Below, in pieces: positions 11,569 to 58,131 of a DNA stretch of 64,000 nucleotides. The stretch is from the NCBI GenBank assembly GCA_013203955.1, contig JABMOY010000140.1, positions 1,362-65,361 of the forward strand. The letters run 5' to 3'. The DNA is from Rhodospirillales bacterium (GTDB taxonomy: Bacteria > Pseudomonadota > Alphaproteobacteria > Rhodospirillales > Casp-alpha2). A program made the position numbers and the translations under genes. Numbering within the stretch: the stretch's first letter is position 1; each line of letters starts with the position of its first letter. The notes beneath the pieces were generated by a model. The model worked only from the letters and a program-made list of their open reading frames with translations, searched no databases and was not told where the DNA came from.

Positions 11569-11598
11569 TAACTTATTTATTCCTTCGTTTTTCTTGAT

Positions 11599-16792: not shown

Positions 16793-16825
16793 AGACGCAG
16801 TTTATAGGAGTCCCCGCCCCCCAAC

Positions 16826-16867: not shown

Positions 16868-16891
16868 GGCGGGAATCAGGATTATTGGGCC

Positions 16892-38378: not shown

Positions 38379-39989
38379 TTAAAAGTCGTTTCGGGGGGGC
38401 GGGTCCAGTGTGCGCCGCCATAGGTCTAAGTCAACCGGCGCCATAATCTCATCGAAGGATACCGGCTGCGGTTCACTTGCCGTCTTCAAGGCGCCCTCCA
38501 AACTTTCCGCCGTCACCGGCGCCGCCGCCACCCCGTCGGGCATGATGTCGAGGGCGATGGCATGGCGGGGCAGCAACCGAAAAGACGGTACCCCGGCGAA
38601 TAGTCCTTCCAGCCCCGGCGTACCGGTGGCGTACAACACTGCCGAAATCCCGGCCTGTTGGGGGACGGTGTTAGCGGTGCGTTTCATGGCGCCCGTTTCC
38701 GGGAAGGCGAAGGGGTACATGGGATGGTCCTTGATCAGGAAGCGCCAGCCTTTTTCCGCCAGCGACCCGACGGCCGCCATCATTTCCCGAGTGACGCCGG
38801 GAATCGCCGACAGGGCGACGTAGACGGGACCTTCGGCGTCGAAATGGCCGCCTTCGGGTGCAGACAAGCGAAAGGCGCCACCGATGACGAGCCGGCTTTC
38901 CGGTATGCCCAACCGCGCCAGTTGGGACCGGTAGGCGGGGCCGTTGCAGATGATCGTATCCGGCAGGCTGTCCAGCCCGTCGGGGTTGCTGGCGGGGCTG
39001 AAATTAAACTGGTGCGGGCCGATTACAGCGTGCTGATAACCGGCGGTGCGCACCCCCAGGGTCCGGGCGGTGCGACAGAAGGCCCGTTCCCAGGCGTGAT
39101 TTTCCCACGGCCAGGCGACCACCCGGGGGTACGCCGAGCGCAGCCACCGGTTCTGGCAATGGATTTGCCAGCGGGTCATGGCCGGCCCGCCGCCGCCGTT
39201 TTCCCGGGCCGCCGCCCGCCTGACCAGCCAGCCGTAGGAACCGGCCAGGTCTTCCGGGCCGGGCCGCCAGCGGGTGAAAACCAGGGCCAGGGCGAAAAGC
39301 GGGTTGCCAAAAGCATGTAAGCTTCCGGTCCGCCCATCGCCTACCAGTGCCTTTGCCCGCCCGGCTCGGCAATCGGTGTGCAGCGCACGTGCCAGCGCCG
39401 GAATATCGCCCATCAGGCCGCCGAAATAGGCATCGTAACCATCCGCCGTGCTTGCGGGATGGCCGTAGGCCAGGATGGCCGATTGCGCCTGACCGAGGGT
39501 GCGCCGCTGGCCGGACAGCATTACGGATGAGGCCATGACCCGGACGGTGACGGCAAAGCGGGCCAACAGGCCACGCAGGAATAACCGAAGGCCAGGGAAC
39601 CAAAGCCCGGGCGACTTTCCAGGGTTAACCTCGGGAAGGACCGCCAATTGACGGAATAGCCACGGATCGTCGCAAACAACGAGGGTGGTTTGTCCCTCTT
39701 TCGCCAAACCGGCGACCAACCGGGACCAAGCCAGCATCAGGCCGAAATCCGAACCGTAGGATCCGGCTGTCGGCGTATGGGCTAGGCGCCCCCCCGGCAC
39801 GTTCCCCATGTGCCGGCCTAGCTCCTGCCAGGTGTCGCCGATGGCGCCGAAGGCTTCTTCTAGGCGCCGGGCCGCTTGGGGTAACGCCCTGGTCCGCGCT
39901 AAGGGGACATCGGTCCCAGAAACGGAAAGCCAGACGTCATAGCTTTGGGGGCCCGAAAGATCGCTTGATGTTCGTAACAAGACGGGCAC
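38379..39989 (-). CDS. Hypothetical protein (uncharacterised surface-carbohydrate biosynthesis protein)
   Basis: 536-aa ORF, the longest frame in this interval; the plus-strand ORFs here are shadows. Visibly GC- and Arg/Ala/Gly-rich. The block VVAWPWENHAWERAF...AGYQHAV...ICNGPAY and the C-terminal half suggest a Rossmann/GT-B-like domain, but I recognise no family securely. Confidence 0.5.
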   Translation of the reverse strand: MPVLLRTSSDLSGPQSYDVWLSVSGTDVPLARTRALPQAARRLEEAFGAIGDTWQELGRHMGNVPGGRLAHTPTAGSYGSDFGLMLAWSRLVAGLAKEGQTTLVVCDDPWLFRQLAVLPEVNPGKSPGLWFPGLRLFLRGLLARFAVTVRVMASSVMLSGQRRTLGQAQSAILAYGHPASTADGYDAYFGGLMGDIPALARALHTDCRAGRAKALVGDGRTGSLHAFGNPLFALALVFTRWRPGPEDLAGSYGWLVRRAAARENGGGGPAMTRWQIHCQNRWLRSAYPRVVAWPWENHAWERAFCRTARTLGVRTAGYQHAVIGPHQFNFSPASNPDGLDSLPDTIICNGPAYRSQLARLGIPESRLVIGGAFRLSAPEGGHFDAEGPVYVALSAIPGVTREMMAAVGSLAEKGWRFLIKDHPMYPFAFPETGAMKRTANTVPQQAGISAVLYATGTPGLEGLFAGVPSFRLLPRHAIALDIMPDGVAAAPVTAESLEGALKTASEPQPVSFDEIMAPVDLDLWRRTLDPPPRNDF

Positions 39990-44936: not shown

Positions 44937-45455
44937 CTAGCCTTCGCGCGCACGGTTTAAAATTTCAAGGGCGACCGGGCGCAAGTCGGCAAGGTCCTGG
45001 CTGTTGTCGACGACCATATCCGGGGACCGGGGCGGGGAGAACTCCATATCGACGCCGACTACGTTTTTGACTTCACCGGCCAAGGCGGGCGCATAAAGGT
45101 TTTTTTGGTCGCGGGCATAAAGGGTTTCCATAGGCACTTTGACGTAAACCTCGAAATATTTGGAAAGAGTCTTGCGGTTTCTTTCCCGCAGCTCTTCGAA
45201 AGAGGAAATGGTGCAGCAAATAACGTTGATGCCCTGCCTGTCCAGCCAAACGCACAGGTCGCAATACCTTTCGGCGATATAGTGCCGACCTAGTTCCGTG
45301 TATGCGTTGTTTCCCGTGGATGATTTTAGAATATCGCGGATTTCATCGCCGTCGACGATTACCGTATTCTGCTCTTCCACAGTCCATAGTTCGTAAAGGT
45401 GGCGGCCGATGGTTGTTTTACCGGACGCCGATAAGCCCGTAAGCCAAATGATCAC
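44937..45455 (-). CDS. APS-kinase-like P-loop kinase (divergent CysC homologue)
   Basis: 172 aa with a GTG start at 45455 preceded by GGGGGA. P-loop IWLTGLSASGKTT and DGDEIR motif. The LGFS/ENIRR block of canonical APS kinases is not conserved. Confidence 0.65.
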   Translation of the reverse strand: MIIWLTGLSASGKTTIGRHLYELWTVEEQNTVIVDGDEIRDILKSSTGNNAYTELGRHYIAERYCDLCVWLDRQGINVICCTISSFEELRERNRKTLSKYFEVYVKVPMETLYARDQKNLYAPALAGEVKNVVGVDMEFSPPRSPDMVVDNSQDLADLRPVALEILNRAREG

Positions 45456-45548: not shown

Positions 45549-45562
45549 CCGGGTGTTTCAAT
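45549..45562. repeat. Direct repeat copy 2 (CCGGGTGTTTCAAT)
   Basis: See copy 1. This copy overlaps the stop codon of the Fe-ADH gene (45558-45560). Confidence 0.3.
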
Positions 45563-46718
45563 TGTTGACGGCGGCATCCAGCTCGCTGGCTGGACAAAAA
45601 TAGTTCAGTGCAAGCCGGGCAATTCGTCGTGCAGCCTCTTCATCAACGCTGCGAATGTTGTTAGCGGCGCGGGAACGGGTGATGAGATTACCTTCAAGGG
45701 TATCTGCGACATCGGGCGTTACATACGCGGCGAGAAGCGGGCCGACGCCCAGTTCCCCGAACCATTTCTCCAGATGTTCCGGGATTTCATCGACGGAACA
45801 CTCGAGCCCCTCGGCGATAGGAAGAAGCCGGCTGGGGTCATCTTTCATGTTGTAGCGGGCGATTTCGGGCAAGGTGAAACTGCAGGCAAGGCCATGCGGA
45901 ACGTCGAAATGAGCGGTAAAGGGATAACTGATGGAATGGGCGGCGGCAGTCTGGGTCGTTCCCATGGTCAGGCCTGACAGAAGCGAGGCTATTTGTACCC
46001 GGCTTCTGAGTACGATGTCGTTTGGTTCTCTCATTGCCGCCAACAGATGGCGGCGGAGCGTACGGATGGCCTTTTCCGCCAGCGCATCCGTGACTTCCGT
46101 ATGGCGCCTGTTCCACACCGATTCCATGGCATGGCTAAGCGCGTCCAACCCCGTAGCAAGGGTCAGGTTTCCGGGCATGGAAACGCACAAAGCTGGGTCA
46201 AGAACGGCGTTGCTGGGATAGAGGCTCGTATGGGAAACCGAATGCTTGATCCTATCTTCCCCCCAGATGGTTCCCCAGCAGGTGACTTCCGACCCGGTGC
46301 CGGATGTCGTTGGCACCGCTATGATGGGTATTGGGGCAAAAGAGTCCGGTAGCGGTTCGCCATCCCTGAGATGGGTCATGAAGGGCCTAAGGTTGTTGCT
46401 CAGGGCCTTAAGGGCGACGGCGCCTTTGGCGGCGTCGATGACGCTGCCGCCGCCGAGGGCAACGACGGTATCGACATCCGGCAACTCATCTGCCAATCCG
46501 ACCACGGTCGGGACATCGGGGTTGCTACAGACGTTCGCCAGCAGCGCCCGGGGTGGGCCGCAACGGTTCTGGATTTTGCCGACTGCACCTCGCATCAGCC
46601 AGCCGGCGCTGGTAACCAGGACCCAGGACTTGCCATCCAGGAGGCCCGCCAGTGCCTCATCGAAGTCCTGGCCTTGGGCAACCACGGTCGGACAATGGAA
46701 GGGACGCTTTAGAACCAT
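45558..46718 (-). CDS. Iron-containing alcohol dehydrogenase (phosphonoacetaldehyde-reductase-like by context)
   Basis: 386 aa. VVALGGGSVIDAAKG and His-rich metal-site segments (LDALSHAMESVWN, AAAHSISYP). The start overlaps the upstream HEPD/MPnS-family gene by 10 nt. Confidence 0.8.
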   Translation of the reverse strand: MVLKRPFHCPTVVAQGQDFDEALAGLLDGKSWVLVTSAGWLMRGAVGKIQNRCGPPRALLANVCSNPDVPTVVGLADELPDVDTVVALGGGSVIDAAKGAVALKALSNNLRPFMTHLRDGEPLPDSFAPIPIIAVPTTSGTGSEVTCWGTIWGEDRIKHSVSHTSLYPSNAVLDPALCVSMPGNLTLATGLDALSHAMESVWNRRHTEVTDALAEKAIRTLRRHLLAAMREPNDIVLRSRVQIASLLSGLTMGTTQTAAAHSISYPFTAHFDVPHGLACSFTLPEIARYNMKDDPSRLLPIAEGLECSVDEIPEHLEKWFGELGVGPLLAAYVTPDVADTLEGNLITRSRAANNIRSVDEEAARRIARLALNYFCPASELDAAVNN

Positions 46719-48100
46719 TGTTTGGTCTCTCCGGCGACGCGGCTGCGGCCCTCAACGGCAAAGGTTGAGAATTCATCGATGACGGCATCGCTTAGCGTTC
46801 CCGGTATGCGGACAATGACAAGCCTACCCTCGTCCTGATCCGGGGCAACGGAGAAAGAATGGCTAACCATCGGTCGAATATAGGCAGAATCGCCGGGGTT
46901 GATAATGTCCGCATTTTCGTTTTCGCCCTCGTTCCAAAGAACGGAGACGGGCACGCCGCCGTAATTGTAGACATATTGATGAAGGCTGTGGCGGAATTGC
47001 CCTTCGGTCGTATCCACGCCGGACAGTACGCTGAGATCGAATCCCTTTAGGCCCGGCTGGCGCCGGGTGCGGGCTAATTCACGCATCCGGTAAGCAGGAT
47101 TATTGACTTTCGGATAAAGACGCTCGGGGGTATCACCGGCATAGCGGACGGTCACAGGACCTTCATCTTCCAGCGGCGTCACCATCAAGTCTTCGGCCCG
47201 GATGTGAAGGGCCTTGGCCAGGGCGACCGTTTCGTCGGCTGTCGGCACCTCGTTTCCGCCTGTCAACATGTCGATGCGGGTCCGATCCATCCCGCCCGCT
47301 AGCAACCGGTCGGCCAGGTCTTGTCGGTTGAGGGACTCGGCGGCTAGATACCTGTCGAGCCGCGCTCGGAACGCGCCGATGCTGTTCGTCGGATTTCCGG
47401 CCAATTCGTCGGCGCTGTTAGGGCCGATCAATCCGAATTGGCCCAGCGCCCGGCGAACATCACCGCCGTAGGTGACGGCGAGGATCAGGCCGGGCCGGTC
47501 GGGGTTACGACCGGCGAACGAGTGCGGCACAAAAGGAGAAATGTAATTGGAATCACCGGTATTCATTTCCGTGCAGTAGCCCTGCCCGGCGATCCGCCAA
47601 TAAAAGTTCACTTCGCCGATGAAGAACGTGCATTGATGCATCAGGTGGCCGTGGTTATAGGCGACATCCGGGTTGTCCGGGTCGGCATCGTCGACGAGGC
47701 GAATCGGCTGTATCCATTCCGGCTTGAAAGGCGCGGTACGGCTCATGGCGGTATCACGGTATTCGTAATAGGGCGTAAGATCGCCGTCGCGGTCCTTGCG
47801 ATCAAAGAAGCGTAGGGTCGCCCGGCTTTCTTCGTCCCGCATGATTTTCACGCCGGATTCGGTATCGTCAGGTTCCACCCAAAGGTCGGCCAGGGAAACC
47901 GGATATTTATCCGCCATGGCACGGATGATCGCTTCCGCCGTTTCCACGGGGGAGCGACCATCGATGGCGGCATGAATGGTATCAATATCGAATTCTATTT
48001 CTTCCGCTAGGGCCTCGGGGGTGCGCTTTAGGTCGTTGGCTTCGGAAAAGATTCGGGAACCCAATGCCGCTAAATGTCTTTTATCGCGAGTCTCATTCAT
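46709..48100 (-). CDS. mpnS: HEPD/MPnS-family non-haem iron oxygenase (tandem HTH-like plus cupin repeats); candidate methylphosphonate synthase
   Basis: 463 aa. Two repeats of helical HTH-like segment plus cupin. The first cupin carries AYNHGH(152)LMHQ(156)CTFFIGEVNF(166)...NYI(187)SPFVPH(193), the His-x3-Gln...His pattern with Phe/Ile neighbours that I recall for MPnS. The second cupin lacks an equivalent ligand set. Confidence 0.6.
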   Translation of the reverse strand: MNETRDKRHLAALGSRIFSEANDLKRTPEALAEEIEFDIDTIHAAIDGRSPVETAEAIIRAMADKYPVSLADLWVEPDDTESGVKIMRDEESRATLRFFDRKDRDGDLTPYYEYRDTAMSRTAPFKPEWIQPIRLVDDADPDNPDVAYNHGHLMHQCTFFIGEVNFYWRIAGQGYCTEMNTGDSNYISPFVPHSFAGRNPDRPGLILAVTYGGDVRRALGQFGLIGPNSADELAGNPTNSIGAFRARLDRYLAAESLNRQDLADRLLAGGMDRTRIDMLTGGNEVPTADETVALAKALHIRAEDLMVTPLEDEGPVTVRYAGDTPERLYPKVNNPAYRMRELARTRRQPGLKGFDLSVLSGVDTTEGQFRHSLHQYVYNYGGVPVSVLWNEGENENADIINPGDSAYIRPMVSHSFSVAPDQDEGRLVIVRIPGTLSDAVIDEFSTFAVEGRSRVAGETKQWF

Positions 48101-48110
48101 CGGCCGCGCC

Positions 48111-49223
48111 TTATTCCTTGAATACCTTTAGGGCTTTTTCATAATCCTCGACGGTGTCGATTTCCTTCCAGCCGCGCTCAATCATGACGCAGTGGACAGG
48201 AACGCCTAGATCAACCATTTCCTGGATCATGTCGGTCAGATATGCTTTCTGGAAAACCGCTGCACGCTGGAAAGGTTTGTCCCAGAAAACTTCCTTGGCG
48301 CGGTGGAAGTGTTTCTTGAAAATTCCGGCGCCCCTTGGCGACAATTTCATCATGCCGATGAATTCGCCATGAACGTCGTGCTTATCGGCAAAAATTTTTC
48401 CAATTTCAACGACGTTATTGTTGGCGTCGAAGATGACCGTTTCGGCTTCTTCCAAGGGGTGGTCATTGCGGTCGACGTAGTACCCGCGCCAATCAAGATC
48501 GACGACGACGGAGATATCGGCTTCAGACCGCAGGAGTCGTTGGACGACCTGACTCTCAAATAGGATGTCGGAATAGGAAACGATGATATGCCCGTCCAAT
48601 TCTTTTTCCGCATAGAACAGTGAATTGAGGATGTTGTTGTCATGGTAATCAGGGTTCTCGTAATACCGAATGCCCGGGTAGTTGATCTTTTCCTTCGCAA
48701 AACCACGGATCAGGGCGACATTATTTAGCCCGCATTCCTGAAACGCCGCCAATTGCCGCTGCAACAGGGTCTGGCCATCGAAATCAAGCATGCATTTAGG
48801 CTGTGACTCGGTGTGCGCTTTCAACCGGCTTCCCATGCCGGCGGCGATGATCAGCACCTTGGTATTGGAGGACGTTATGGTTTCTCTCATTTCGTCTATC
48901 TGCTCGCCGGAAAGATTGAATTTGTGTATAGCGCGGATTAGGGGAATTGTTTCGGGCCTGTCGCGCATAATAGGGTCGACATCGGGGGCAACGGCGTTTT
49001 TCGACTGACCGGCAAGATCGAAAAGTTTTTCGGTGTCGGCATCCAGAATTTCAGCAAGGGATTCGATGGCTTCAACCCTCGGAGCAACACGTTTGTTTTT
49101 TTCGATATCATTCAGATAAGAAGGCGAAACCTTCAGCGCACGCGCCAGTTCCCGCTGTCCAATTTCCCTTTGCATCCTTAAGGACCGGACATATTCGCCA
49201 AAAGTCTCTTTTCCTTCATGCAT
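48111..49223 (-). CDS. XRE-type HTH domain fused to a LicC/PntC-like nucleotidyltransferase
   Basis: 370 aa. N-terminal HTH (GQRELARALKVSPSYLNDIEKNKR). A nucleotidyltransferase domain follows from about residue 120 (VLIIAAGMGSRLK...). Visibly lower GC than neighbouring genes. Confidence 0.8.
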   Translation of the reverse strand: MHEGKETFGEYVRSLRMQREIGQRELARALKVSPSYLNDIEKNKRVAPRVEAIESLAEILDADTEKLFDLAGQSKNAVAPDVDPIMRDRPETIPLIRAIHKFNLSGEQIDEMRETITSSNTKVLIIAAGMGSRLKAHTESQPKCMLDFDGQTLLQRQLAAFQECGLNNVALIRGFAKEKINYPGIRYYENPDYHDNNILNSLFYAEKELDGHIIVSYSDILFESQVVQRLLRSEADISVVVDLDWRGYYVDRNDHPLEEAETVIFDANNNVVEIGKIFADKHDVHGEFIGMMKLSPRGAGIFKKHFHRAKEVFWDKPFQRAAVFQKAYLTDMIQEMVDLGVPVHCVMIERGWKEIDTVEDYEKALKVFKE

Positions 49224-49305: not shown

Positions 49306-51150
49306 TTACTTTCCAATGGCTTGATCTCTCTTGCAGCCTGCAGCGACGGCATCTCTGCCAATATCGCCGAAACAATCGATGATGCGTTGGTCGGTGATTT
49401 CAGGAATCTCGGCCATGCGTTCCGCAATCAGGGCATTGAAGCGGGAAATCAGTTGGTGGTCGGGGCGGTACAGGTTGTGGGTTTCCGACGGGTCGTCCCG
49501 GATATTGAACAGTTCTGGGCCATCGGGGCTGAACTTGTCGGCCGGGTCCTTGTATTCGCGCCAGCAATAAAGGTGGTCTTTCGTGCGCACGGCGAAATAA
49601 AGGGGTCGGTGGTCGAACAGGCAATTGCCGCCGTAGAAGGTTTCCAGCAACACATGATCCCTATCGCCGCCTCCCGGTTCGGTGACCGCTAGGCCCTCCC
49701 AGTCCGGGGCCGGGTCGACCCCTGCCAGGGCGGCTACCGTCGGCGGCATGTCGGCGATGGTGAACAGCCCGTCGAGGCGCGTCTTGCCGATTTTCGGGTG
49801 GGAAAAAACCATCGGCACCCGCGTGTTGTGGGTGTAGTGCAGGAAATAATGGCCGAAATCGCCGTGATCGCCCAACTCCTCTCCGTGGTCGCCGGCAACG
49901 ATAATCAATGTGTCGTCCCTGAGGCCTAGCCGTTCGACGGCGTCGACGATGCGCCCGATCTCATCATCTGTTGAGCGCACGGCGCAATCGTAAAGGGCGG
50001 AAAAGGCATCGCCGTCTTGTTTTCTTTTCGGCTTGCCGTCGAAGGACAGGGAAGGATCGATATCCGGAGAATAACCGAGTGCCTCCAGCAGCCGGGGGGT
50101 GTGCCGATACCACTTTCGGCCCGGCCCTGAAACATAAGGGTGGTGAGTGTCCATGAAGTGGGTCCAGATGAAAAAGGGCTTCGTTTTATCCCGCTGCTCC
50201 AGCAGGCCGATGACCTTGTCGGCCAGGGAGTGGGCATCGGGGTAGATCTTGAAGCGGTTTTGCCGCGCCCGCGCCCATTTGGCATTTACCCAGCCAAGCA
50301 ACAGGTTGCCGGCGCGGAAAAAAAGCTCTGCGATCAGCCTGGAAGGTTTCCGGCAATAACGCCATTCCCTGACCAGCCAGCGGTTCATCCATTCCTTGCC
50401 GACCGGCGTCGGGATCAGGTGGCGGCGGATATAGGCAATCTTACCGGCCTGGTATTCCTGCCGGTGGCGACCGATGGCGGCCTTGATCTTGGCGAAGTCG
50501 TAGCGCGAATTGACCAGCGCCGAATCAGGAAAGTCGCGGTCGATTTCATCGCCCCGCTCAAGTATCAGGTCGCAATAAACCGACGTGTTGTCAAAAAACC
50601 GCAACAGCACGGGATCGACTTTGCCTAACAGTTCGCCGTCGTTGATGTTGCCTTTCTCAAACTCCAGAAGGGTGTTGCGGATCATCGCCAGGGCGACGCC
50701 CGGCAAGGAGTTCAGCCCGAAGGTTTGGATTTCCTCGTCAATGCCTTCGTCATATCCGAAAAACCTGTTGACCCAATGAAGCGTGGTCAAGCACGTGGTT
50801 TTGTAGCCAGCGTCATGGAACCGCTTGAACACGGTTTCGGGCCGGCCTTCGGCGCCGTAATCGTATCCTCCGTAGGACAAGGGGCGGCTTGACGTGAACA
50901 TCTGCGCGCTGGCGGCCTGGGTGAAGGTGGCCATGGAAAAAGCGTTTTCACAGACGACGGCCGTTTTGGCCAGCCGTTCCAGGGTGGGGGTCGTCGGACG
51001 GTCGTAGCCATGCAGGCTGGTACGGTCGGCGCGTAGCGCGTCGACGGTCAGCATCAGGATGTTGGGTTGTTGATGTCGATGATCCATCAAATTATATCCA
51101 GGAGAAGGCTTTTGGCGTCGTTCTGGGAATCGCCGAAACGGAATTCCCAA
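49306..51150 (-). CDS. Alkaline-phosphatase-superfamily (sulfatase-fold) protein lacking the formylglycine motif
   Basis: 614 aa. Sulfatase-like N-terminus PNILMLTVDALRAD...TPTLERLA...NAFSMATFTQAASAQMFTSSRP and a later VAGDHGEELGDHG block. The position of C-x-P-x-R is occupied by T-Q-A-A-S. An alternative start is M22 at 51087. Confidence 0.75.
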   Translation of the reverse strand: MGIPFRRFPERRQKPSPGYNLMDHRHQQPNILMLTVDALRADRTSLHGYDRPTTPTLERLAKTAVVCENAFSMATFTQAASAQMFTSSRPLSYGGYDYGAEGRPETVFKRFHDAGYKTTCLTTLHWVNRFFGYDEGIDEEIQTFGLNSLPGVALAMIRNTLLEFEKGNINDGELLGKVDPVLLRFFDNTSVYCDLILERGDEIDRDFPDSALVNSRYDFAKIKAAIGRHRQEYQAGKIAYIRRHLIPTPVGKEWMNRWLVREWRYCRKPSRLIAELFFRAGNLLLGWVNAKWARARQNRFKIYPDAHSLADKVIGLLEQRDKTKPFFIWTHFMDTHHPYVSGPGRKWYRHTPRLLEALGYSPDIDPSLSFDGKPKRKQDGDAFSALYDCAVRSTDDEIGRIVDAVERLGLRDDTLIIVAGDHGEELGDHGDFGHYFLHYTHNTRVPMVFSHPKIGKTRLDGLFTIADMPPTVAALAGVDPAPDWEGLAVTEPGGGDRDHVLLETFYGGNCLFDHRPLYFAVRTKDHLYCWREYKDPADKFSPDGPELFNIRDDPSETHNLYRPDHQLISRFNALIAERMAEIPEITDQRIIDCFGDIGRDAVAAGCKRDQAIGK

Positions 51151-51188: not shown

Positions 51189-52985
51189 TCAAAGCTTGGC
51201 GAGCTCGACAAGGTTGTTGAAGTTTGAATTGCGTGCGGCCAGTTCCTCGAATGTCCCGATATCGTCAATGCGACCGTCTTTCAAAAAAACCACGCGATCG
51301 CATGCTCGAACCGTACTTAGCCGGTGGGCAATGATGATCATGGTTTTTTCGCCGCGGAATTTTTCGATGGCCTGATTGACCTCCTGCTCGGTTTCGCTAT
51401 CGAGCGAAGACGTCGCTTCGTCAAAAATAAGAACCCCAGGATCACGGTAGAGAGCTCGGGCGATGCCCACGCGTTGGCGTTGCCCGCCGGAGAGGCGGGT
51501 TCCCCGGTCGCCTAATTGCGTTTCCAGGCCATCGGGCAGACCCCTAACGAAGCTCTCCAACTGCGCCAGGCGGACGGCGTTTTGTATCATGTCCTCGCTG
51601 ATCTCATGGTCAGCCAGCCCAAAGGCAATGTTACGGCGCAGGGTGTCATCGGTAATGTATATGGATTGTGGCACGTATCCGATTTGGCGGCGCCAGGCGC
51701 TAGGTGCGTCCCGTATATTCGTGCCATCGACGGTCACAGCGCCCGAGTCCGGAACCAAAAGGCTAAGCACTATATCGACCAGAGTGGTTTTGCCCGAACC
51801 GGACCGCCCCACCAAGCCCATGGACTCGCCCTTGTTTAAGACGAGATCAATGTCCTTCAAAACGGCACCGTTGCCTTGGTCATAGCTAAAGGACACTCCA
51901 TTTATAGATAGCGCCGTTTTAAATGCCAGGGTCTGGCCGTCGTCTTCCGACTCTTCGTCCGGGTTGGCACGGAATGCATGAAGGTCTTGATAGATGAGTT
52001 CGACGGCGTGCGACCCACTCTTGATGCCGTTAAGGGCGATGATGATCCTGTTCATCGACGGAATCATGCGAAAGGCGGCAATCGCGAAAAGGGTGATTGA
52101 CGAAAGAATTTCCGCCGATCGGCCGCCGCTGGAAAGAATGGATATGACAGCCAATAGGACGGCGGCGACAATCACGGACTCGACCCACAGTCGCGGCGCC
52201 CCGCTCATTGCCCTGAGCTTGGTTCGGATTCCGGCAAGTTCCAGACAGGGGCTTTCAAAGCTTTCGAGAATGTAACGCTGCCGGCCCAGAATTTTCACCT
52301 CTTTGATGTTGTGAAATCCCTGCTGCAGGGATTTTAGGACTTCCCCAGTCGCTTTTTGCTCGCGCATACCCCAGGCCGAGAACCGACTTTTTGAAAAGCT
52401 GAAAAATATGGCGACCGCCGCGCCTAGCACGAGAAACGCGCCAAGGGTCAACATCGGTTCTGCCATGAGCAGGACAACGATCAGCGCGACGATCATGACG
52501 GCTTCCGAAGCAAGGTTGATGAAACCCGTAATCACGGTGCCGAAAATAGCCGTCACAGAGCCGGTAATGTTGCGAATTAAATCTGCAGAATTCCGTCTCA
52601 AATGCAGGGAATAGGCGCCTTTAAGGTAACTGTCCAACAGGCGTACGGCCAACGAAGCTTCGTTGGCGGCGGTAAAGCTTGCCTGAAAGTAATAAAATCC
52701 GATAAGGATCAGGTTCTTGATAAGGAACCCCGCAAGGAGACCGAATGACATGAGGATCAATGCCTCGGTTTCGTTCTCGACAAAGGCCGGGCCGACTAAC
52801 TTTCCGACCACCGCAATATTTTGTATCTGGGTGGGGTCAATCAGTGCTTGGACGAAAACGAATATTAACCCGATTCCAATCGCTTCGAGCATGCCGGCAA
52901 CCAAAGCCAAAATGCTGACCGCCCCGGCATGCCACAGGGTTTTTCGCTCGATCATGGCGAGGCATTTTCGGAGTTCAGTCAACAT
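51189..52985 (-). CDS. ABC exporter, fused permease-ATPase (MsbA/PglK/Wzk-like)
   Basis: 598 aa. Six-helix TMD followed by an NBD with Walker A GRSGSGKTT, signature LSGGQRQR and Walker B LIFDEATSSLD. Confidence 0.9.
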   Translation of the reverse strand: MLTELRKCLAMIERKTLWHAGAVSILALVAGMLEAIGIGLIFVFVQALIDPTQIQNIAVVGKLVGPAFVENETEALILMSFGLLAGFLIKNLILIGFYYFQASFTAANEASLAVRLLDSYLKGAYSLHLRRNSADLIRNITGSVTAIFGTVITGFINLASEAVMIVALIVVLLMAEPMLTLGAFLVLGAAVAIFFSFSKSRFSAWGMREQKATGEVLKSLQQGFHNIKEVKILGRQRYILESFESPCLELAGIRTKLRAMSGAPRLWVESVIVAAVLLAVISILSSGGRSAEILSSITLFAIAAFRMIPSMNRIIIALNGIKSGSHAVELIYQDLHAFRANPDEESEDDGQTLAFKTALSINGVSFSYDQGNGAVLKDIDLVLNKGESMGLVGRSGSGKTTLVDIVLSLLVPDSGAVTVDGTNIRDAPSAWRRQIGYVPQSIYITDDTLRRNIAFGLADHEISEDMIQNAVRLAQLESFVRGLPDGLETQLGDRGTRLSGGQRQRVGIARALYRDPGVLIFDEATSSLDSETEQEVNQAIEKFRGEKTMIIIAHRLSTVRACDRVVFLKDGRIDDIGTFEELAARNSNFNNLVELAKL

Positions 52986-53069: not shown

Positions 53070-53627
53070 TCATGGCCGATCCTTGCCGTCGATTTCAAGG
53101 CGCGAACGGATAAAAGCATATAACGTGCCGACGGCGTCCTCTGGGCTTTGATGGGCGGTGTCGAGTTCAAGGTCGGGCGATTGCGGCGGCTCGTATACAC
53201 TACCTGAAGAAAAGCCGATCATGCCGTCCATTTCACCTCCAGCCGCCTTGGCGTACAGGCCCTTGACGTCGCGACCGACGACCGTGTCCAGATCCGCATT
53301 GCAGAAGATTTCAAAAAAACCGGGGCCCAGCTTTTCGCGCGCGTCCCGCCGGCTCTCGCCATAAGGTGAAATAATCGGCACCAAGATGACGTCGTAAAGC
53401 CCTCGTTGTTCGGCGCAGATTTCGGCGATTAACATGTTGTTTTCCTTAACCTCGGGCTCGCTGAAACCGAGGTGACGGTGAAAGCGGCGGCGTACGTCGT
53501 CGCCGTCCAGGGTCAAGACGTCGAGCCCGTCCTTGGTCAGCTGTTCCCTGACGCCGTCGGCGATGGTGCTTTTTCCCGCCCCTGACAGCCCTGTGAACCA
53601 GATAACGCCGCCCGGCTTGCTCGTCAT
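53070..53627 (-). CDS. cysC: Adenylyl-sulfate (APS) kinase
   Basis: 185 aa from ATG 53627, which forms an ATGA overlap with the upstream stop. VIWFTGLSGAGKSTIA, LDGDDVRR, LGFS, IISPYGESR. The track start at 53762 adds an Arg-rich extension overlapping the upstream gene. Confidence 0.88.
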   Translation of the reverse strand: MTSKPGGVIWFTGLSGAGKSTIADGVREQLTKDGLDVLTLDGDDVRRRFHRHLGFSEPEVKENNMLIAEICAEQRGLYDVILVPIISPYGESRRDAREKLGPGFFEIFCNADLDTVVGRDVKGLYAKAAGGEMDGMIGFSSGSVYEPPQSPDLELDTAHQSPEDAVGTLYAFIRSRLEIDGKDRP

Positions 53628-55588
53628 GACGTCGAGGCCTTCGGAGGGAATACAGGCGTAATGCCGATATCGCCCAGGCGGTCGAACAGGTCCCGGGCGG
53701 CGTTCGTTCCGTCTTCGCTGGCGGCGGGAATGAAATAGCCGCAGCCCATGTTTTTCAGGCAAAGGGCGGCGAAGACCATTTCCCGGGGACCGCTGAGCCG
53801 GCCATAGGCAGCGAACCCGCCGAGAACCACCCGGCCTTCGGGATAGATCCCCGATTGCAAGGCCGCTTGATAGCTTTCCATCACCGGGTCGGGTTGGGAT
53901 TCGCCCGGCGCATCGGGGTCGATGGACGGGCTGATGTAGAGCCCGTCGGCCTTGGTTGAAGCCAAGGCATCAATGTGGAAATTCTGCAATTTCTGGGTGG
54001 ACGAGGCTTCACCGTAAAACCCGGCGACCCGGCTCCAGCCCTTCTGGTTGAAGATAAAACGGGTCTGGGCCGGGAAAAGCTGGTAATGGCGCCACGGCGA
54101 TGGAATTCGATTGACCAGCGTTACCGGCCCGGCGACGGCCATGTCCCCGGCGGCCAGCAACCGCTGCACGCCCGGATGGTCCCGAGCGTCGGTCTCGAAC
54201 AAGGCTTTGGCCGTCTTGTCGAAATCAAGCGGATAAATTTCCGTGACATCCATGAAGGCGTGGGCCTCGCGGCTATCCGACGTCAGCGCGATCCTGTCCC
54301 CGGGGGCGAAGGCTTTGGTCTTTTCCACCATCGTCTGCAAAACGACCGGCAGGGTCCAGGCGAGGCCATCGTTAAGTTGGTATTTGGTCAAAACCGATTC
54401 CAAGGTCGCCTGGTCCATGAAGCCGGTCAAAGGGGAATAGGTGCCCAGCGCAATCTGCTGGCAATCGAGAAGATCCCTGGCCGAAACCTGGAGCCGGGGC
54501 AGGCCATCCAACGCTTCGCCATCGGCGGCCTCGCGGTGGACTAAGGCGCCACCGTGCGGTTCGGGCAGCAGCGACACGGGGTCAAGGTGGTAGCGGTCGG
54601 TTTCGTCGTCGTCCCGATTTTCGAAGACGTTGATCATCTTCGCCACCATGTTGGCGCAGCGCACCGGGTATTGGCCGATGGCCGTTTCCGCCGCCAAGAC
54701 GACCCCGTCGGCACCGTCCAAGAAGGTATTGTAGATGTCGTTGACTTCGGCCCGGGTGGGCACGGGCTCTGTGACCATCGATTCAAGCAGGTTGGTTGCC
54801 ACATAGACCTTTCGGTTTTTGGCGCCGGCCGTTTTGATAATCTTTTTCTGGTAGGCGGGGATGAGTTCGATGGGAACTTCGCGCGATAAATCGCCCCGGT
54901 CGATCAATATGGCATCGGACAGTTCGGCGATTTCTTCAAGATTGTCGACGCCGTTGCGGCATTCGATCTTGGAAATGATGGAGGAACCTTTTCCGGTCAG
55001 CGTTCGAAGCTCCCTTACGTCCTTTCCGGAATTGGCGAACGATAGGGCGAAATGAGTGACTCCTAAGTCGACGCCGATGGCGACTGCCGCTCGATCCTTT
55101 TCCGTCAGCGCTGGCATAGTGATGGGTCGGTCCACGGTAACGGCCTTATTGCGACCAAATTTTCCGCCGTTGAGAACCCTCATGGAGAGCGTATCGGCGG
55201 TGCAATCGATGACCTGAACCAGGACGGCGTTGAAATCGATGCTGATTATGTCGCCGACTTGGAATTCCGAAATGATGCCGTGGGGATAAAAATTGAAATC
55301 TTTGCCGTTTCCCGGAACCGTTTCCCGGTGCGCCCGGACGATGGCATTTTCATCCATTTGAAAGGTTGGCTCCGTTAGGTCCCCGGTGCGGATCTGCGCG
55401 CCTTCCGTATCCAAGGACAGCGGCACCCGGGTTAACGAGGTAACGAAACGGATGGCGTCGGCGACGTCGTCCAGCTTAGTGTGGGACAGGTTGATCCTGA
55501 ACAACGTCACGCCCAGCTCTTCCAGCCGGGCAATGACGTGCTCGTTCATGGAAGCCGGGCCGAGGGTGCAGAGAATTTCTTTGGTCAT
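53624..55588 (-). CDS. Fusion protein: pyruvate-kinase-like barrel (about aa 1-335) plus ATP-sulfurylase-like domain with degenerate catalytic motifs (about aa 340-654)
   Basis: PK motifs: ILCTLGPAS, RINLSH, LDTEGAQIRTG, ISKIE, IDRGDLSREVP, ATNLLESM, PTRAEVND, LAAETA. Sat-like part: GTYSPLTGFM, GPREMVFAALCLKNMGCGYFI. GFYGEASSTQ replaces QTRNPxHxxH, and PAASEDG replaces GRDHAG. Confidence 0.8.
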   Translation of the reverse strand: MTKEILCTLGPASMNEHVIARLEELGVTLFRINLSHTKLDDVADAIRFVTSLTRVPLSLDTEGAQIRTGDLTEPTFQMDENAIVRAHRETVPGNGKDFNFYPHGIISEFQVGDIISIDFNAVLVQVIDCTADTLSMRVLNGGKFGRNKAVTVDRPITMPALTEKDRAAVAIGVDLGVTHFALSFANSGKDVRELRTLTGKGSSIISKIECRNGVDNLEEIAELSDAILIDRGDLSREVPIELIPAYQKKIIKTAGAKNRKVYVATNLLESMVTEPVPTRAEVNDIYNTFLDGADGVVLAAETAIGQYPVRCANMVAKMINVFENRDDDETDRYHLDPVSLLPEPHGGALVHREAADGEALDGLPRLQVSARDLLDCQQIALGTYSPLTGFMDQATLESVLTKYQLNDGLAWTLPVVLQTMVEKTKAFAPGDRIALTSDSREAHAFMDVTEIYPLDFDKTAKALFETDARDHPGVQRLLAAGDMAVAGPVTLVNRIPSPWRHYQLFPAQTRFIFNQKGWSRVAGFYGEASSTQKLQNFHIDALASTKADGLYISPSIDPDAPGESQPDPVMESYQAALQSGIYPEGRVVLGGFAAYGRLSGPREMVFAALCLKNMGCGYFIPAASEDGTNAARDLFDRLGDIGITPVFPPKASTS

Positions 55589-56367: not shown

Positions 56368-57291
56368 TCAGCCGCCGGCTCGAACGGCGGCCAAAATGGT
56401 ATCCTTATCCAGGCCGTGCTTGGCCCTGAGATCGTCGTGCGATCCGTAACAGTGAATGAATTCGTCCTTAAGCGTGAAGGTATGTAGTTGGCACGTCGCC
56501 TTTTCGTCCCAAGCGATCTGCTTTGTCATCGGCGCCAGTCCACCCCGGGGCGCGTGCTCCTCGATGACAATGGCGGTCTTGTGGTCGCGTAGCGCTTTGG
56601 CGATGCCTTCGCGGTCCAGGGGCTTTAAGGTATGGACGTTCAACACCGAAACCGACGCGCCGCCGACTTCCAGCGTGTCGGCGATTTCCATCGCCATCGA
56701 CATGATGGGGCCGTGCGACAGGACGCAAATGTCCCGGCCTTCCCGGAGACGGCGGACTTTGCCGAACTCGAACGGATCGAGGGCGTTTCCTGTCAACACC
56801 GGCTCGCCCGCCTTGCCAAGCTTGAAATACATCGGCCCCTTGTTTTCCAGCGCGCAGTAACGAGTCATCTCCATTGTTTCCGCCGGGTCGCAAGGCGTCA
56901 GGATCTGCATGTTGGGCAGTGCCCCGGCGATGGCAATATCTTCCTGGGTGTGATGGGTTCCCCCCAGCGTTGAATAAACGATGCCGCTGCCCATGCCGAC
57001 GACGGTGACGGGCAAGTTCTGGTAACACAGATCGTCGCGGACCATTTCGAACGGCCGGTAAAGGGTGAACGTAGCGATGGTATAGGCAAACGGCCGGAAC
57101 CCTTTCAGGGCCATGCCGGCGCAGATGCCGATCATGTTCTGCTCGGCGACTCCGACATTGATGAAACGTTCGGGGCATTCTTCCTGGAACTTGACCATGG
57201 ACCCGGCCGGCGAAATATCGGCGACGACGATGCTGACCCGATCGTCCTCGACGGCCGCTTGGTAAAGGGATTCGGCGAAGGCATTTCTCAT
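56368..57291 (-). CDS. Transketolase-family protein, C-terminal (pyrimidine-binding) subunit
   Basis: ERFINVGVAEQNMIGICAGMALKGFRPF motif. ATG 57291 forms an ATGA overlap with the N-terminal-subunit gene. Confidence 0.88.
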   Translation of the reverse strand: MRNAFAESLYQAAVEDDRVSIVVADISPAGSMVKFQEECPERFINVGVAEQNMIGICAGMALKGFRPFAYTIATFTLYRPFEMVRDDLCYQNLPVTVVGMGSGIVYSTLGGTHHTQEDIAIAGALPNMQILTPCDPAETMEMTRYCALENKGPMYFKLGKAGEPVLTGNALDPFEFGKVRRLREGRDICVLSHGPIMSMAMEIADTLEVGGASVSVLNVHTLKPLDREGIAKALRDHKTAIVIEEHAPRGGLAPMTKQIAWDEKATCQLHTFTLKDEFIHCYGSHDDLRAKHGLDKDTILAAVRAGG

Positions 57292-58118
57292 GAACTGGAC
57301 TCGAGCTCTTTCATGGCTTGTTCGTATTCTTCTGGGTTGGGTGCCCGGTAGTGCCATATCGGCACATTTTCCATATAGCTCACGCCCTTGCCCTTGGTCG
57401 TCTTGGCGATGGCCATGAAGGGCTTGCCCCCCTGGCGATCCGTTGCCGCCTTAAAAAGGGGCTCTGCGTCGTGGCCGTCGAGTTCGACGGCTTCCCAGCC
57501 GAAGGCGGTAATCTTGTCGAGGACCGGATAGAAGCTGGGGTGGGTTTCCGATGTTCTCCCTAAGCTTTGGAAATCGTTGTTGTCCATGAACACGATCAGG
57601 TTATCCAACCCCATTGAAGACGCCATCATGAGGGCTTCCCAGGTTGATCCTTCCTGCGCTTCGCCATCGCTGATAACAACGTAAATTTTTACACCCCGGC
57701 CTTTGAGCTTTTCCGCATAGGCCATGCCGACGGCCATGGATAGGCCGTGGCCTAACGACCCGGTGGATGCCTCGATCCCGGGATTGCCGTAATCGGGATG
57801 GCACCCCAGCCGCCCTTCGGGCGTGCAGTATAGGTCAAGGTCCTTGCGGTTCAGTATGCCAAGGTCCTCCAAGACCACGTACTGGATCATGCAGCCGTGA
57901 CCCTTGGACATCAGGAAGGTATCCATTGGCGTTCCATCGTCTGTCCGGTTCATCAAGCCGTTGTAGATCAAATCGACGATTTCCGTGCACGAAAAGGCGG
58001 CGGCGATGTGCAGCGCCGTAACCTGCTGGGAAATCTCCAGTATGCGCTTGCGGTAGTCCCGGCACCGGGACTTGGCGGCCTCGGCATCGAAGCTGTTGGA
58101 TTGTTTGTTTGCAGTCAT
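57288..58118 (-). CDS. Transketolase-family protein, N-terminal (ThDP diphosphate-binding) subunit
   Basis: SKGHGCM, GSLGHGLSMAVG, VVISDGEAQEGSTWEALMMAS...NLIVFMDNN (ThDP motif). ATG 58118 (MTANKQ) is preferred over the track start at 58220, which overlaps the upstream gene. Confidence 0.88.
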   Translation of the reverse strand: MTANKQSNSFDAEAAKSRCRDYRKRILEISQQVTALHIAAAFSCTEIVDLIYNGLMNRTDDGTPMDTFLMSKGHGCMIQYVVLEDLGILNRKDLDLYCTPEGRLGCHPDYGNPGIEASTGSLGHGLSMAVGMAYAEKLKGRGVKIYVVISDGEAQEGSTWEALMMASSMGLDNLIVFMDNNDFQSLGRTSETHPSFYPVLDKITAFGWEAVELDGHDAEPLFKAATDRQGGKPFMAIAKTTKGKGVSYMENVPIWHYRAPNPEEYEQAMKELESSS

Positions 58119-58131
58119 TCTTTGATGGGTA

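What the first reader, a model, noticed from the sequence alone, without database searches (positions are those of the whole stretch)
46709..48100. Residue signature favours methylphosphonate synthase over HEPD (2-His-1-Gln with Phe/Ile neighbours)
Read directly from the translation: ...VAYNH150-G-H152-L-M-H155-Q156-CTFFIGEVN-F166-YWR...NY-I187-SPFVP-H193-SF.

The spacings are:
- His to Gln: +4
- Gln to Phe: +10
- Ile to His: +6

To my recollection of the N. maritimus MPnS structure, iron is held by His148, Gln152 and His190, and the Gln is pinned by Phe162 and Ile184. Those spacings are identical (4, 10, 6). HEPD enzymes carry Tyr and Gly at the two pinning positions, and swapping them changes product specificity.

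The 463-aa length and the duplicated HTH-like plus cupin layout, with only the first cupin keeping ligands, also fit. If this is correct, the organism makes methylphosphonate, the proposed precursor of aerobic marine methane.
Basis: partly seen in the sequence, partly recalled or inferred. Interest (0 to 1): 0.8.

Follow-up and report, generated by a model that had tools for sequence, protein, structure and literature searches.

The report
Methylphosphonate synthase gene, Rhodospirillales MAG
This gene almost certainly encodes methylphosphonate synthase, the iron enzyme that makes the proposed precursor of oceanic aerobic methane, but such genes are already documented in this bacterial group and the two enzymes that start the pathway are missing from this DNA stretch.

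Summary

They align column for column with N. maritimus MPnS H148/Q152/F162/I184/H190. S. albus HEPD has Tyr and Gly at the two pinning columns. The published mpnS residue rule (H148|Q152|F162|I/V184|H190) is met.

An AlphaFold model (pLDDT 95.8) superposes on both MPnS and class II HEPD at TM about 0.9. Overall identity is equidistant (37% vs 36%). The call therefore rests on the markers and the tree: 100/100 bootstraps exclude the query from the Tyr/Gly HEPD clade.

The gene is translationally coupled to an Fe-alcohol dehydrogenase and preceded by a LicC-like nucleotidyltransferase. Both partners occur fused to MPnS homologues elsewhere.

Caveats:
- No PEP mutase or phosphonopyruvate decarboxylase lies in the 64-kb window or about 3 kb beyond it, so "the organism makes methylphosphonate" is inferred, not shown.
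- F/I is the majority state of the family (105/151 representatives), not a rare signature.

Verdict: new member of a known kind. Rhodospirillales mpnS was already reported. Interest is modest.

The parts
46709..48100 (-). mpnS: 463-aa bi-cupin non-heme Fe(II) oxygenase of the MPnS/HEPD family, MPnS type
   Evidence: ORF. PDB phmmer gives 6b9s MPnS E = 6.6e-81 and 6b9r HEPD E = 2.1e-67. AF2 pLDDT is 95.8. Foldseek TM is 0.88/0.93 to 6b9s. The exact protein is deposited as 'hypothetical protein HQ512_09665 [Rhodospirillales bacterium]'.
47522..47647 (-). First-cupin active-site stretch: H152 (47645-47647), Q156 (47633-47635), F166 (47603-47605), I187 (47540-47542), H193 (47522-47524)
   Evidence: Residues verified. 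They align to MPnS H148/Q152/F162/I184/H190. Among the 120 nearest homologues H/Q/H and F are invariant; the I column is I in 109, V in 10 and L in 1.
46859..46990 (-). Second-cupin stretch with H371, Q375 and H414 at the positions equivalent to the first-cupin ligands
   Evidence: The hhalign of N-half against C-half aligns H152/H371, Q156/Q375 and H193/H414. In the clade H371 is at least 90% conserved, H414 is invariant, and the consensus at 375 is Glu. The pattern is not family-wide. The substrate-binding equivalents are lost: Y114 aligns to Met and N149 to a gap.
45558..46718 (-). Fe-dependent alcohol dehydrogenase, putative phosphonoacetaldehyde reductase (PhpC/Pdh-like) that makes 2-HEP
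   Evidence: Pfam Fe-ADH plus ADH_Fe_C. The best NCBIfam hit is TIGR03405 Phn_Fe-ADH at 280 bits, below its 423.7 cut-off. Ligands D192, H196, H261 and H275 are present. Its start overlaps the mpnS stop (ATGGTTCTAA). It is syntenic in all relatives whose flank reaches it. It is fused to an MPnS homologue in P0121.
48111..49223 (-). HTH (XRE-type) plus NTP_transf_3 nucleotidyltransferase, LicC/PntC-like. Putative cytidylyltransferase that activates the phosphonate.
   Evidence: Pfam. Best PDB hit is LicC 1jyk (E = 1.2e-13); PntC 6pd1 scores 1e-4. It lies upstream of mpnS in all relatives examined except L008. In 9 of 10 longer representatives an NTP_transf_3 domain is fused to the N-terminus of the MPnS homologue.
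49306..51150 (-). Alkaline-phosphatase-superfamily 'sulfatase'-like protein. The true start is uncertain: JGI aa. Candidate phospho(no)-group transferase or hydrolase.
   Evidence: Pfam Sulfatase, with weak EptA/CptA hits at residues 14-92. There is no C/S-x-P-x-R motif; instead it has ATFTQAASAQMFTS. Homologues accompany mpnS in L012, L006, L015 and L016.
44937..45455 (-). APS-kinase family protein immediately downstream of the Fe-ADH
   Evidence: Pfam APS_kinase and NCBIfam PRK05541. An APS kinase recurs beside mpnS/Fe-ADH in L012, L006, L015 and L016.
51189..52985 (-). PglK/MsbA-like ABC exporter (fused permease and ATPase), likely flippase or exporter for the glycan product
   Evidence: NCBIfam PglK 341.8 bits and MsbA 311.4 bits, both below cut-off. 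It is conserved upstream in L012 and L015.

Best explanation
The ORF encodes a methylphosphonate synthase (EC 1.13.11.73). It is a homologue of N. maritimus MPnS in which Fe(II) is held by a 2-His-1-Gln triad (H152, Q156, H193). The Gln is kept on the metal by Phe166 and Ile187.

Proposed pathway:
1. The enzyme binds 2-hydroxyethylphosphonate (2-HEP). This is inferred from the conserved K25, R101, Y114 and N149, which align to MPnS K28, R102, Y110 and N145.
2. It uses O2 to cleave the C1-C2 bond, giving methylphosphonate plus CO2/bicarbonate rather than hydroxymethylphosphonate plus formate.
3. Its substrate is made by the translationally coupled Fe-alcohol dehydrogenase, which reduces phosphonoacetaldehyde.
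4. The phosphonate is then probably nucleotide-activated by the upstream LicC-like nucleotidyltransferase.
5. It is attached to a cell-surface glycan built by the surrounding ~50-kb polysaccharide locus and exported through the adjacent PglK-like ABC transporter.

Shown: homology, marker residues, fold, phylogenetic exclusion from HEPD, and synteny and fusion with the two partner enzymes.

Inferred: the product, the nucleotide activation, the glycan destination, and a supply of phosphonoacetaldehyde from a PEP mutase and decarboxylase encoded elsewhere in the genome.
For: - Full-length match to MPnS 6b9s (E = 6.6e-81, 275.8 bits), ahead of HEPD 6b9r (231.2 bits).
- The five marker columns are identical to MPnS; HEPD has Y and G.
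- The published rule H148|Q152|F162|I/V184|H190 is met (PMC9381506 Table S2). The Tyr-Gly motif is diagnostic of class II HEPD (PMC8976061).
- All 120 nearest homologues keep H/Q/F/(I,V,L)/H. Several of them carry JGI's label 'methylphosphonate synthase'.
- The AF2 model has pLDDT 95.8. Foldseek top hits are 6b9s/6b9t, E = 1.4e-47, rmsd 2.3 A.
- In the NJ tree the query lies outside the Tyr/Gly clade in 100/100 bootstraps.
- Columns at least 95% conserved family-wide include K25, R26, R97, R101, Y111, Y112, Y114, N149, H152, Q156 and H193.
- Operon: the mpnS stop overlaps the Fe-ADH start. The Fe-ADH's best family hit is the phosphonate-cluster Fe-ADH TIGR03405.
- The nucleotidyltransferase and Fe-ADH flank mpnS in nearly all relatives examined. 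Each is found fused to MPnS homologues.
- Canonical relatives carry Ppm, Ppd, NTP-transferase, MPnS, Fe-ADH, APS kinase and sulfatase together (L006; L016).
Against: - No PEP mutase is present. There is no EDKx5NS motif in six frames, no PF13714 hit, and tblastn matches only the nucleotidyltransferase part of the L006 Ppm fusion.
- No phosphonopyruvate decarboxylase is present: best tblastn E = 0.69.
- Nothing relevant lies about 3 kb past the right edge either.
- No member of the query's own clade is known to me to have been assayed. The query is only 37% identical to the characterised enzyme and nearly as close to HEPD, at 36%.
- The marker rule comes from two structures plus mutagenesis that I could not re-read, because Born et al. 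2017 is not held.
- I could not measure side-chain geometry in the AF2 model.
- The Fe-ADH scores below the TIGR03405 cut-off: 280 against 423.7.
Confidence: 0.8

Rival explanations
1. It is a class II HEPD-like dioxygenase that converts 2-HEP to hydroxymethylphosphonate plus formate despite carrying Phe/Ile.
For: Overall identity to S. albus HEPD (35.9%) is almost the same as to MPnS (37.4%). Foldseek TM-scores are equal for both. Both enzymes share the 2-His-1-Gln triad.
Against: The Tyr/Gly pair that defines class II HEPD is absent. The query is excluded from the Tyr/Gly clade in 100/100 bootstraps. No downstream HMP-processing genes were seen in the window.
Confidence: 0.05
2. It is an MPnS-type oxygenase whose physiological substrate is not free 2-HEP. 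The substrate would be a nucleotide-linked or otherwise modified hydroxyalkylphosphonate, for example CMP-2-HEP made by the adjacent nucleotidyltransferase, so the free product differs from methylphosphonate.
For: The nucleotidyltransferase sits immediately upstream. In 9 of 10 longer representatives it is physically fused to the MPnS homologue. From my own knowledge, the fosfomycin pathway (Fom1/Fom3) provides a precedent for tailoring of CMP-2-HEP. B12-radical SAM genes recur near ppm-less loci.
Against: The phosphonate-binding columns K25, R101, Y114 and N149 are those of the enzyme that takes free 2-HEP (residue roles from memory). From the 6b9t entry title, N. maritimus MPnS binds free 2-HEP. 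Fusion is equally well explained by activation of the product, methylphosphonate.
Confidence: 0.1
3. The gene is a functionally orphaned or repurposed cupin in a polysaccharide locus that has no phosphonate supply. Either the pathway is decaying or the enzyme acts on a non-phosphonate substrate.
For: ppm and ppd are absent from the window and its extension. They are also absent within +/-10 kb in six other related loci.
Against: The ORF is intact, with all catalytic and substrate columns conserved. The NTP-transferase/MPnS/Fe-ADH trio is kept under evident selection across lineages 49-75% identical, whether or not ppm is nearby. Translational coupling is retained. ppm-less loci are too common (7 of 11) and too well conserved to be decay.
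Confidence: 0.05

Closest known systems
Nitrosopumilus maritimus methylphosphonate synthase (MPnS; PDB 6b9s/6b9t; EC 1.13.11.73; KO K18049)
   Same: Same full-length bi-cupin architecture. Same 2-His-1-Gln triad. Same Phe and Ile pinning residues with identical spacings. Same conserved phosphonate-binding columns. TM is 0.88/0.93 and rmsd 2.3 A. Both sit in clusters with an Fe-ADH, a nucleotidyltransferase and sulfatase-like genes.
   Different: Identity is only 37%. The query branches outside the clade that unites the N. maritimus group with class II HEPD (100/100 bootstraps). It is bacterial (a Rhodospirillales MAG), not archaeal. No ppm or ppd lies in cis. The second cupin has His at the first ligand-equivalent column where N. 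maritimus MPnS has Val.
Class II HEPD (Streptomyces albus HEPD, PDB 6b9r; AlpG)
   Same: Same fold (TM 0.88-0.93), same 2-His-1-Gln triad, same substrate 2-HEP, and 36% identity.
   Different: HEPD has Tyr and Gly where the query has Phe166 and Ile187. The query lies outside the Tyr/Gly clade. The expected product therefore differs: HMP plus formate against methylphosphonate plus CO2.
Class I HEPD (S. viridochromogenes PhpD, PDB 3g7d)
   Same: Same bi-cupin fold, with TM 0.73/0.81.
   Different: Identity is 18%, and it was not detected by sequence search at E <= 1. It uses a 2-His-1-Glu triad, with the Glu at the column where the query has Ile (Table S2).
Bacterial mpnS loci already surveyed (Pelagibacterales, Rhodospirillales and others; Lockwood et al. 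2022, PMC9381506)
   Same: Same taxon-level assignment. Same neighbourhood themes: arylsulfatase-like genes, adenylyl/nucleotidyl transferases and glycosyltransferases.
   Different: This particular protein is deposited as 'hypothetical protein'. Its locus lacks linked ppm and ppd.

Membership tests
Methylphosphonate synthase (MPnS, EC 1.13.11.73) | Full-length HEPD/MPnS bi-cupin fold (two helical-plus-cupin repeats, about 450 aa) | tested here: met
   phmmer covers residues 9-463 against 12-450 of 6b9s. AF2 pLDDT is 95.8. Foldseek TM is 0.88/0.93. The internal repeat scores hhalign 99.4%.
Methylphosphonate synthase (MPnS, EC 1.13.11.73) | 2-His-1-Gln iron triad (H148, Q152, H190) | tested here: met
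   H152, Q156 and H193 fall in those columns. They are invariant in the 120 nearest homologues and at least 95% conserved family-wide. The rule is from PMC9381506 Table S2.
Methylphosphonate synthase (MPnS, EC 1.13.11.73) | Phe at column 162 and Ile/Val at column 184 | tested here: met
   F166 and I187 occupy those columns. The rule is from PMC9381506 Table S2.
Methylphosphonate synthase (MPnS, EC 1.13.11.73) | Gln side chain actually coordinated to Fe and packed against Phe/Ile in three dimensions | not testable with these tools
Only the backbone superposition is available: rmsd 2.3 A to 6b9s.
Methylphosphonate synthase (MPnS, EC 1.13.11.73) | Phylogenetic placement outside the HEPD clades | tested here: met
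   NJ tree of 113 representatives. The Tyr/Gly clade excludes the query in 100/100 bootstraps. NJ with Kimura distances is an approximate method.
Methylphosphonate synthase (MPnS, EC 1.13.11.73) | Genomic linkage to 2-HEP supply: phosphonoacetaldehyde reductase | tested here: met
   A translationally coupled Fe-ADH lies downstream, syntenic in relatives. An Fe-ADH-MPnS fusion exists.
Methylphosphonate synthase (MPnS, EC 1.13.11.73) | Genomic linkage to PEP mutase and phosphonopyruvate decarboxylase. This is usual for the pathway but does not define the enzyme. | tested here: not met
   No EDKx5NS motif. No PEP_mutase or TPP_enzyme Pfam hits among the 50 window ORFs scanned. tblastn is negative. 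Nothing appears in the extension past the edge. They are present next to mpnS in L005, L006, L008 and L016.
Methylphosphonate synthase (MPnS, EC 1.13.11.73) | Product is methylphosphonate plus CO2/HCO3- from 2-HEP and O2 | not testable with these tools
   This needs an enzyme assay.
Class II HEPD | Tyr-Gly pair at columns 162/184 together with the 2-His-1-Gln triad | tested here: not met
   The query has Phe and Ile. The motif definition comes from PMC8976061 and PMC9381506 Table S2.
Class I HEPD (PhpD type) | 2-His-1-Glu triad, with the Glu at the column-184 equivalent | tested here: not met
   Ile occupies that column. Identity is 18% and TM 0.73. No sequence hit at E <= 1.
HppE (hydroxypropylphosphonate epoxidase) | Single HTH-plus-cupin unit of about 198 aa with a 2-His-1-Glu site | tested here: not met
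   Only a marginal local match to one cupin: E = 1.1e-3, 21 bits.

The most novel reading that the evidence does not exclude
The mpnS/Fe-ADH/nucleotidyltransferase trio works as a portable 'methylphosphonate-decoration cassette', uncoupled from C-P bond formation. Seven of the eleven distinct loci examined have no ppm or ppd within 10 kb. In these, phosphonoacetaldehyde would come from an unlinked PEP mutase pathway shared with 2-AEP synthesis, or from transamination of scavenged 2-aminoethylphosphonate. Methylphosphonate would then be cytidylylated and transferred by the Thr-motif alkaline-phosphatase-superfamily protein onto a sulfated, methylated surface polysaccharide. A rider: the second cupin's conserved His/Glu(Gln)/His set is a second, functional metal site.
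Probability: 0.2. Interest if true: 0.6.

Novelty: new member of a known kind. Interest (0 to 1): 0.3.

Why it matters
Methylphosphonate is the proposed substrate for C-P-lyase-dependent methane release in oxygenated water, so each confidently assigned mpnS adds a potential source organism. Here the value is mostly correct annotation.

- The protein is deposited as 'hypothetical protein' and NCBIfam has no model for the family. The published five-residue rule classifies it cleanly.
- Most close relatives sampled carry mpnS without linked ppm or ppd. Surveys that record mpnS only when it is adjacent to pepM (the approach described in PMC8931226) would miss such loci.
- The conserved partners, including fusion proteins, point to nucleotide-activated methylphosphonate as a glycan decoration. 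That step has never been shown biochemically.

Tried and rejected
1. **PEP mutase in the window.** I ran a six-frame scan for ED[KQ]x5N[ST], Pfam on 50 window ORFs, and tblastn with the L006 Ppm and Ppd. All were negative.
2. **Pyruvate-kinase domain as a disguised PEP mutase.** The domain belongs to the 53624-55588 fusion. Rejected: it scores 238 bits to PK itself and is absent from the 75%-identical relative's locus.
3. **Split transketolase (56368-58220) as a substitute decarboxylase.** Rejected: it belongs to the transketolase families, not TPP_enzyme_N/C, and it is not conserved with mpnS in other ppm-less loci.
4. **Looking past the right window edge through other contigs.** This shows an SDR, a ferredoxin, a B12-radical SAM and a methyltransferase fragment, but no ppm or ppd.
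5. **Deep profile search for a PEP mutase carrying the MAG's HQ512 locus-tag prefix.** It returned 7,994 hits. The 120 listed are saturated with near-equal scores and none carries the tag, so the result is inconclusive.
6. **Reading Born et al. 2017 (the primary source).** It is not held, by DOI or by PMC id. I used secondary sources instead.
7. **Naming organisms for AT-rich, probably SAR11, relatives to place the assayed Pelagibacter enzyme in the tree.** No organism names were returned.
8. **Environment of the source samples.** No paper mentions the sample ids.
9. **Fold comparison as a discriminator.** MPnS and class II HEPD score equally.
10. **Exact-sequence look-up of the 62569-63591 ORF.** It is not on record with that start codon.
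Full report
**1. The observation**

The ORF listing returns an ATG-initiated ORF at 46709..48100 on the minus strand, 463 aa.

A phmmer search of all PDB chains finds N. maritimus methylphosphonate synthase first: 6b9s, E = 6.6e-81, 275.8 bits, query residues 9-463 against chain residues 12-450. S. albus 2-hydroxyethylphosphonate dioxygenase comes second: 6b9r, E = 2.1e-67, 231.2 bits. HppE follows with only a marginal one-domain match.

The printed alignments give these equivalences:
- query `nhgH152lmhQ156...evnF166y...nyI187spfvpH193`
- MPnS `nngHfmhQ...evnFy...myItpftpH`
- HEPD has Tyr and Gly at the Phe and Ile columns.

The MPnS stretch rebuilt from that alignment has H148, Q152, F162, I184 and H190 in chain numbering.

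**2. Is the rule real?**

I could not open Born et al. 2017. Secondary sources cover the rule:
- Lockwood et al. 2022 (PMC9381506, Suppl. Table S2) tabulate the residues used to verify gene identity: mpnS = H148|Q152|F162|I/V184|H190, and hepD = H148|A/Q152|I/Y162|E/G184|H190.
- An independent paper calls the Tyr-Gly motif 'diagnostic of class II HEPD' (PMC8976061).
- A profile of C. Drennan states that the MPnS structure revealed a sequence motif showing the gene to be abundant in upper-ocean microbes (PMC11573533).

The query meets the mpnS rule and fails the hepD rule.

**3. How discriminating is the evidence?**

Overall similarity is not discriminating. In one MAFFT alignment the query is 37.4% identical to MPnS and 35.9% to S. 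albus HEPD, and those two are 37.4% identical to each other.

Fold is not discriminating either. An AlphaFold2 model built on 119 homologues is very confident (pLDDT 95.8, pTM 0.93). Foldseek places it on MPnS (6b9s_B, E = 1.4e-47, TM 0.88/0.93, rmsd 2.3 A) and on HEPD 6b9r (TM 0.88-0.89/0.92-0.93) almost equally. Class I HEPD (3g7d) is far behind at 18% identity.

The decision rests on the marker columns and phylogeny:
- The 120 nearest homologues (48-75% identical) all have H/Q/H and Phe. The second pinning column is Ile in 109, Val in 10 and Leu in 1.
- An exhaustive search of 1.84 billion cluster representatives finds 462 relatives. Among the best 150 plus references, the five-column signature is HQFIH in 105 and HQYGH in 21, with a scatter of others.
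- In a neighbour-joining tree the Tyr/Gly sequences form one clade with S. albus HEPD, sister to the N. maritimus group, plus a small second clade. The query sits in a large Phe/Ile clade.
- In 100 bootstraps the Tyr/Gly clade excludes the query every time. A clade uniting the N. maritimus group with the Tyr/Gly group also excludes it every time. The Tyr/Gly clade is monophyletic in 85.

Phe/Ile is thus the widespread, apparently ancestral state, and Tyr/Gly is derived. It is not a rare coincidence.

Columns at least 95% conserved family-wide include K25, R26, R97, R101, Y111, Y112, Y114, N149, H152, Q156 and H193. By alignment, K25, R101, Y114 and N149 correspond to MPnS K28, R102, Y110 and N145. 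I recall these as the phosphonate-binding set, from memory and not re-checked.

**4. Context**

The gene lies in a minus-strand run from about 11.6 kb to beyond 64 kb. This run encodes glycosyltransferases, sugar-nucleotide enzymes, methyltransferases, radical SAM enzymes, a carbamoyltransferase and PAPS-synthesis genes.

The immediate neighbours are as follows:
- **Fe-alcohol dehydrogenase, 45558..46718.** Its ATG overlaps the mpnS stop (ATGGTTCTAA). Its best family hit is the phosphonate-cluster Fe-ADH TIGR03405, though below cut-off. Ligands D192, H196, H261 and H275 are present.
- **HTH plus NTP_transf_3 nucleotidyltransferase, 48111..49223.** It is closest to LicC CTP:phosphocholine cytidylyltransferase (1jyk, E = 1.2e-13), with a weak hit to the phosphonate cytidylyltransferase PntC (6pd1).
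- **'Sulfatase'-family protein, 49306..51150.** It lacks the C/S-x-P-x-R formylglycine motif. It has ATFTQAASAQMFTS, reminiscent of the Thr-nucleophile motif of EptA/MCR transferases (resemblance from memory).
- **PglK/MsbA-like ABC exporter**, upstream of the sulfatase-like gene.
- **APS kinase**, downstream of the Fe-ADH.

Across related loci the nucleotidyltransferase (absent only from L008) and the Fe-ADH (wherever the flank reaches it) flank mpnS. Both are found fused to MPnS homologues. Of ten longer representatives, nine carry an N-terminal NTP_transf_3 domain and one an N-terminal Fe-ADH. That is strong evidence the three act in one pathway.

**5. The missing first steps**

No PEP mutase or phosphonopyruvate decarboxylase is in the window:
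- no ED[KQ]x5N[ST] motif in six frames;
- no PF13714 or TPP_enzyme hits;
- tblastn with a relative's Ppm and Ppd gives only the nucleotidyltransferase part (E = 8e-27) and nothing for Ppd (best E = 0.69).

Other contigs carrying identical genes extend about 3.3 kb past the right edge. They show an SDR, a ferredoxin, a B12-binding radical SAM and a methyltransferase fragment.

Canonical relatives do have the full set. L006 reads Ppm-NTP-transferase fusion, Ppd, NTP-transferase, MPnS, Fe-ADH, APS kinase, sulfatase. L016 is alike, and L005 and L008 carry EDKx5NS upstream.

Six further distinct loci lack ppm and ppd within +/-10 kb: L012, L015, L003, L004, L007 and L017. Some lie on contigs of 0.27-1.3 Mb. 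Unlinked ppm is therefore common in this clade, and its absence here is not evidence of decay. It does mean that 'the organism makes methylphosphonate' is inferred.

A profile search for a PEP mutase bearing the MAG's HQ512 tag was saturated and inconclusive.

**6. Source and prior knowledge**

The exact protein is in NCBI as 'MAG: hypothetical protein HQ512_09665 [Rhodospirillales bacterium]' and in two JGI metagenomes. NCBIfam has no model that hits it, which explains the label. JGI labels several relatives 'methylphosphonate synthase'.

Lockwood et al. already list Rhodospirillales among bacterial MpnS carriers. They describe neighbourhoods with arylsulfatase, adenylyltransferase and glycosyltransferase genes. 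The finding is therefore a new member of a known kind.

**7.

The N- and C-terminal halves are homologous (hhalign 99.4%, E = 1.4e-20). The alignment pairs H152/H371, Q156/Q375 and H193/H414. In the query's clade H371 is at least 90% conserved, H414 is invariant, and the consensus at 375 is Glu. N. maritimus MPnS has Val/Gln/His there, and the pattern is not family-wide.

The second cupin thus keeps ligand-type residues. It has lost the substrate-binding equivalents: Y114 aligns to Met and N149 to a gap. Whether it binds metal is unknown.

**8. Verdict**

The enzyme assignment is supported at about 0.8. In vivo methylphosphonate production is plausible but unproven, at about 0.6, because the C-P bond-forming step is not on this contig.

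Novelty is low: a new member of a known kind. Interest is 0.3, raised slightly by three things: the ppm-less cassette architecture, the fusion evidence for nucleotide activation, and the second-cupin triad.

Noticed in passing
window 46859-46990 (-), residues H371, Q375, H414: The second (C-terminal) cupin keeps His/Gln/His at the positions that align with the first cupin's iron ligands. The clade consensus is His/Glu/His, a classic cupin metal motif. N. maritimus MPnS has Val at the first position. This may be a second metal site or a structural relic.
   Followed up: partly
window 53624-55588 (-) and 53070-53762 (-): A 654-aa fusion of a pyruvate kinase barrel domain, a PUA_2 domain and an ATP-sulfurylase domain, followed by an APS kinase. 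This is an unusual architecture. It may couple PEP-driven ATP regeneration to sulfate activation for a sulfated glycan. It is absent from the 75%-identical relative's locus.
   Followed up: no
window 49306-51150 (-): The 'sulfatase'-family protein next to the mpnS operon lacks the C/S-x-P-x-R formylglycine motif. It has ATFTQAASAQMFTS, which resembles the Thr-nucleophile motif of EptA/MCR phosphoethanolamine transferases, and it has no membrane domain. It is a candidate phosphonyl-group transferase. Homologues recur beside mpnS in L006, L012, L015 and L016.
   Followed up: partly
proteins P0121, P0134, P0135, P0141, P0143, P0164, P0174, P0179, P0183, P0184: Natural fusion proteins exist. Nine have an N-terminal NTP_transf_3 nucleotidyltransferase joined to an MPnS/HEPD-family domain, and one (P0121) has an Fe-ADH joined to it. 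P0121's marker columns are unusual (H-Q-V-M-H).
   Followed up: partly
L010:773-2524 (about 65-67 kb in window coordinates, beyond the edge); L003:1755-3683; L015:1-727: A B12-binding radical SAM enzyme recurs near ppm-less mpnS loci. This enzyme class includes the phosphonate methyltransferases Fom3 and PhpK, but here it could equally methylate a sugar.
   Followed up: no
L003, L004, L007, L012, L015, L017 versus L005, L006, L008, L016: Seven of eleven distinct mpnS loci examined, including the window, have no PEP mutase or Ppd within 10 kb. Surveys that count mpnS only when adjacent to pepM would miss them.
   Followed up: partly
tree (P0171, P0172, P0183; P0198): The Tyr/Gly (HEPD-type) pair appears in a second small clade away from S. 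albus HEPD. One Phe/Ile sequence (P0198) nests inside the main Tyr/Gly clade. This suggests the product-specificity switch has flipped more than once.
   Followed up: no
window 56368-58220 (-): A split transketolase-like pair (Transketolase_N, then Transket_pyr plus Transketolase_C) sits between two methyltransferases in the glycan locus. The 75%-identical relative has a non-orthologous E1-type alpha/beta pair at the same position.
   Followed up: partly
window 38379-39989 (-), 30040-31179 (-), 16808-17815 (+): Three sizeable ORFs (536, 379 and 335 aa) inside the polysaccharide locus have no Pfam match at E <= 0.01.
   Followed up: no
window 2391-7253 (+): A 1,620-aa bacterial NAD-specific glutamate dehydrogenase with all ACT and helical-motif domains marks the housekeeping flank, together with purH at 9997-11598. 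The glycan locus begins just after these.
   Followed up: no
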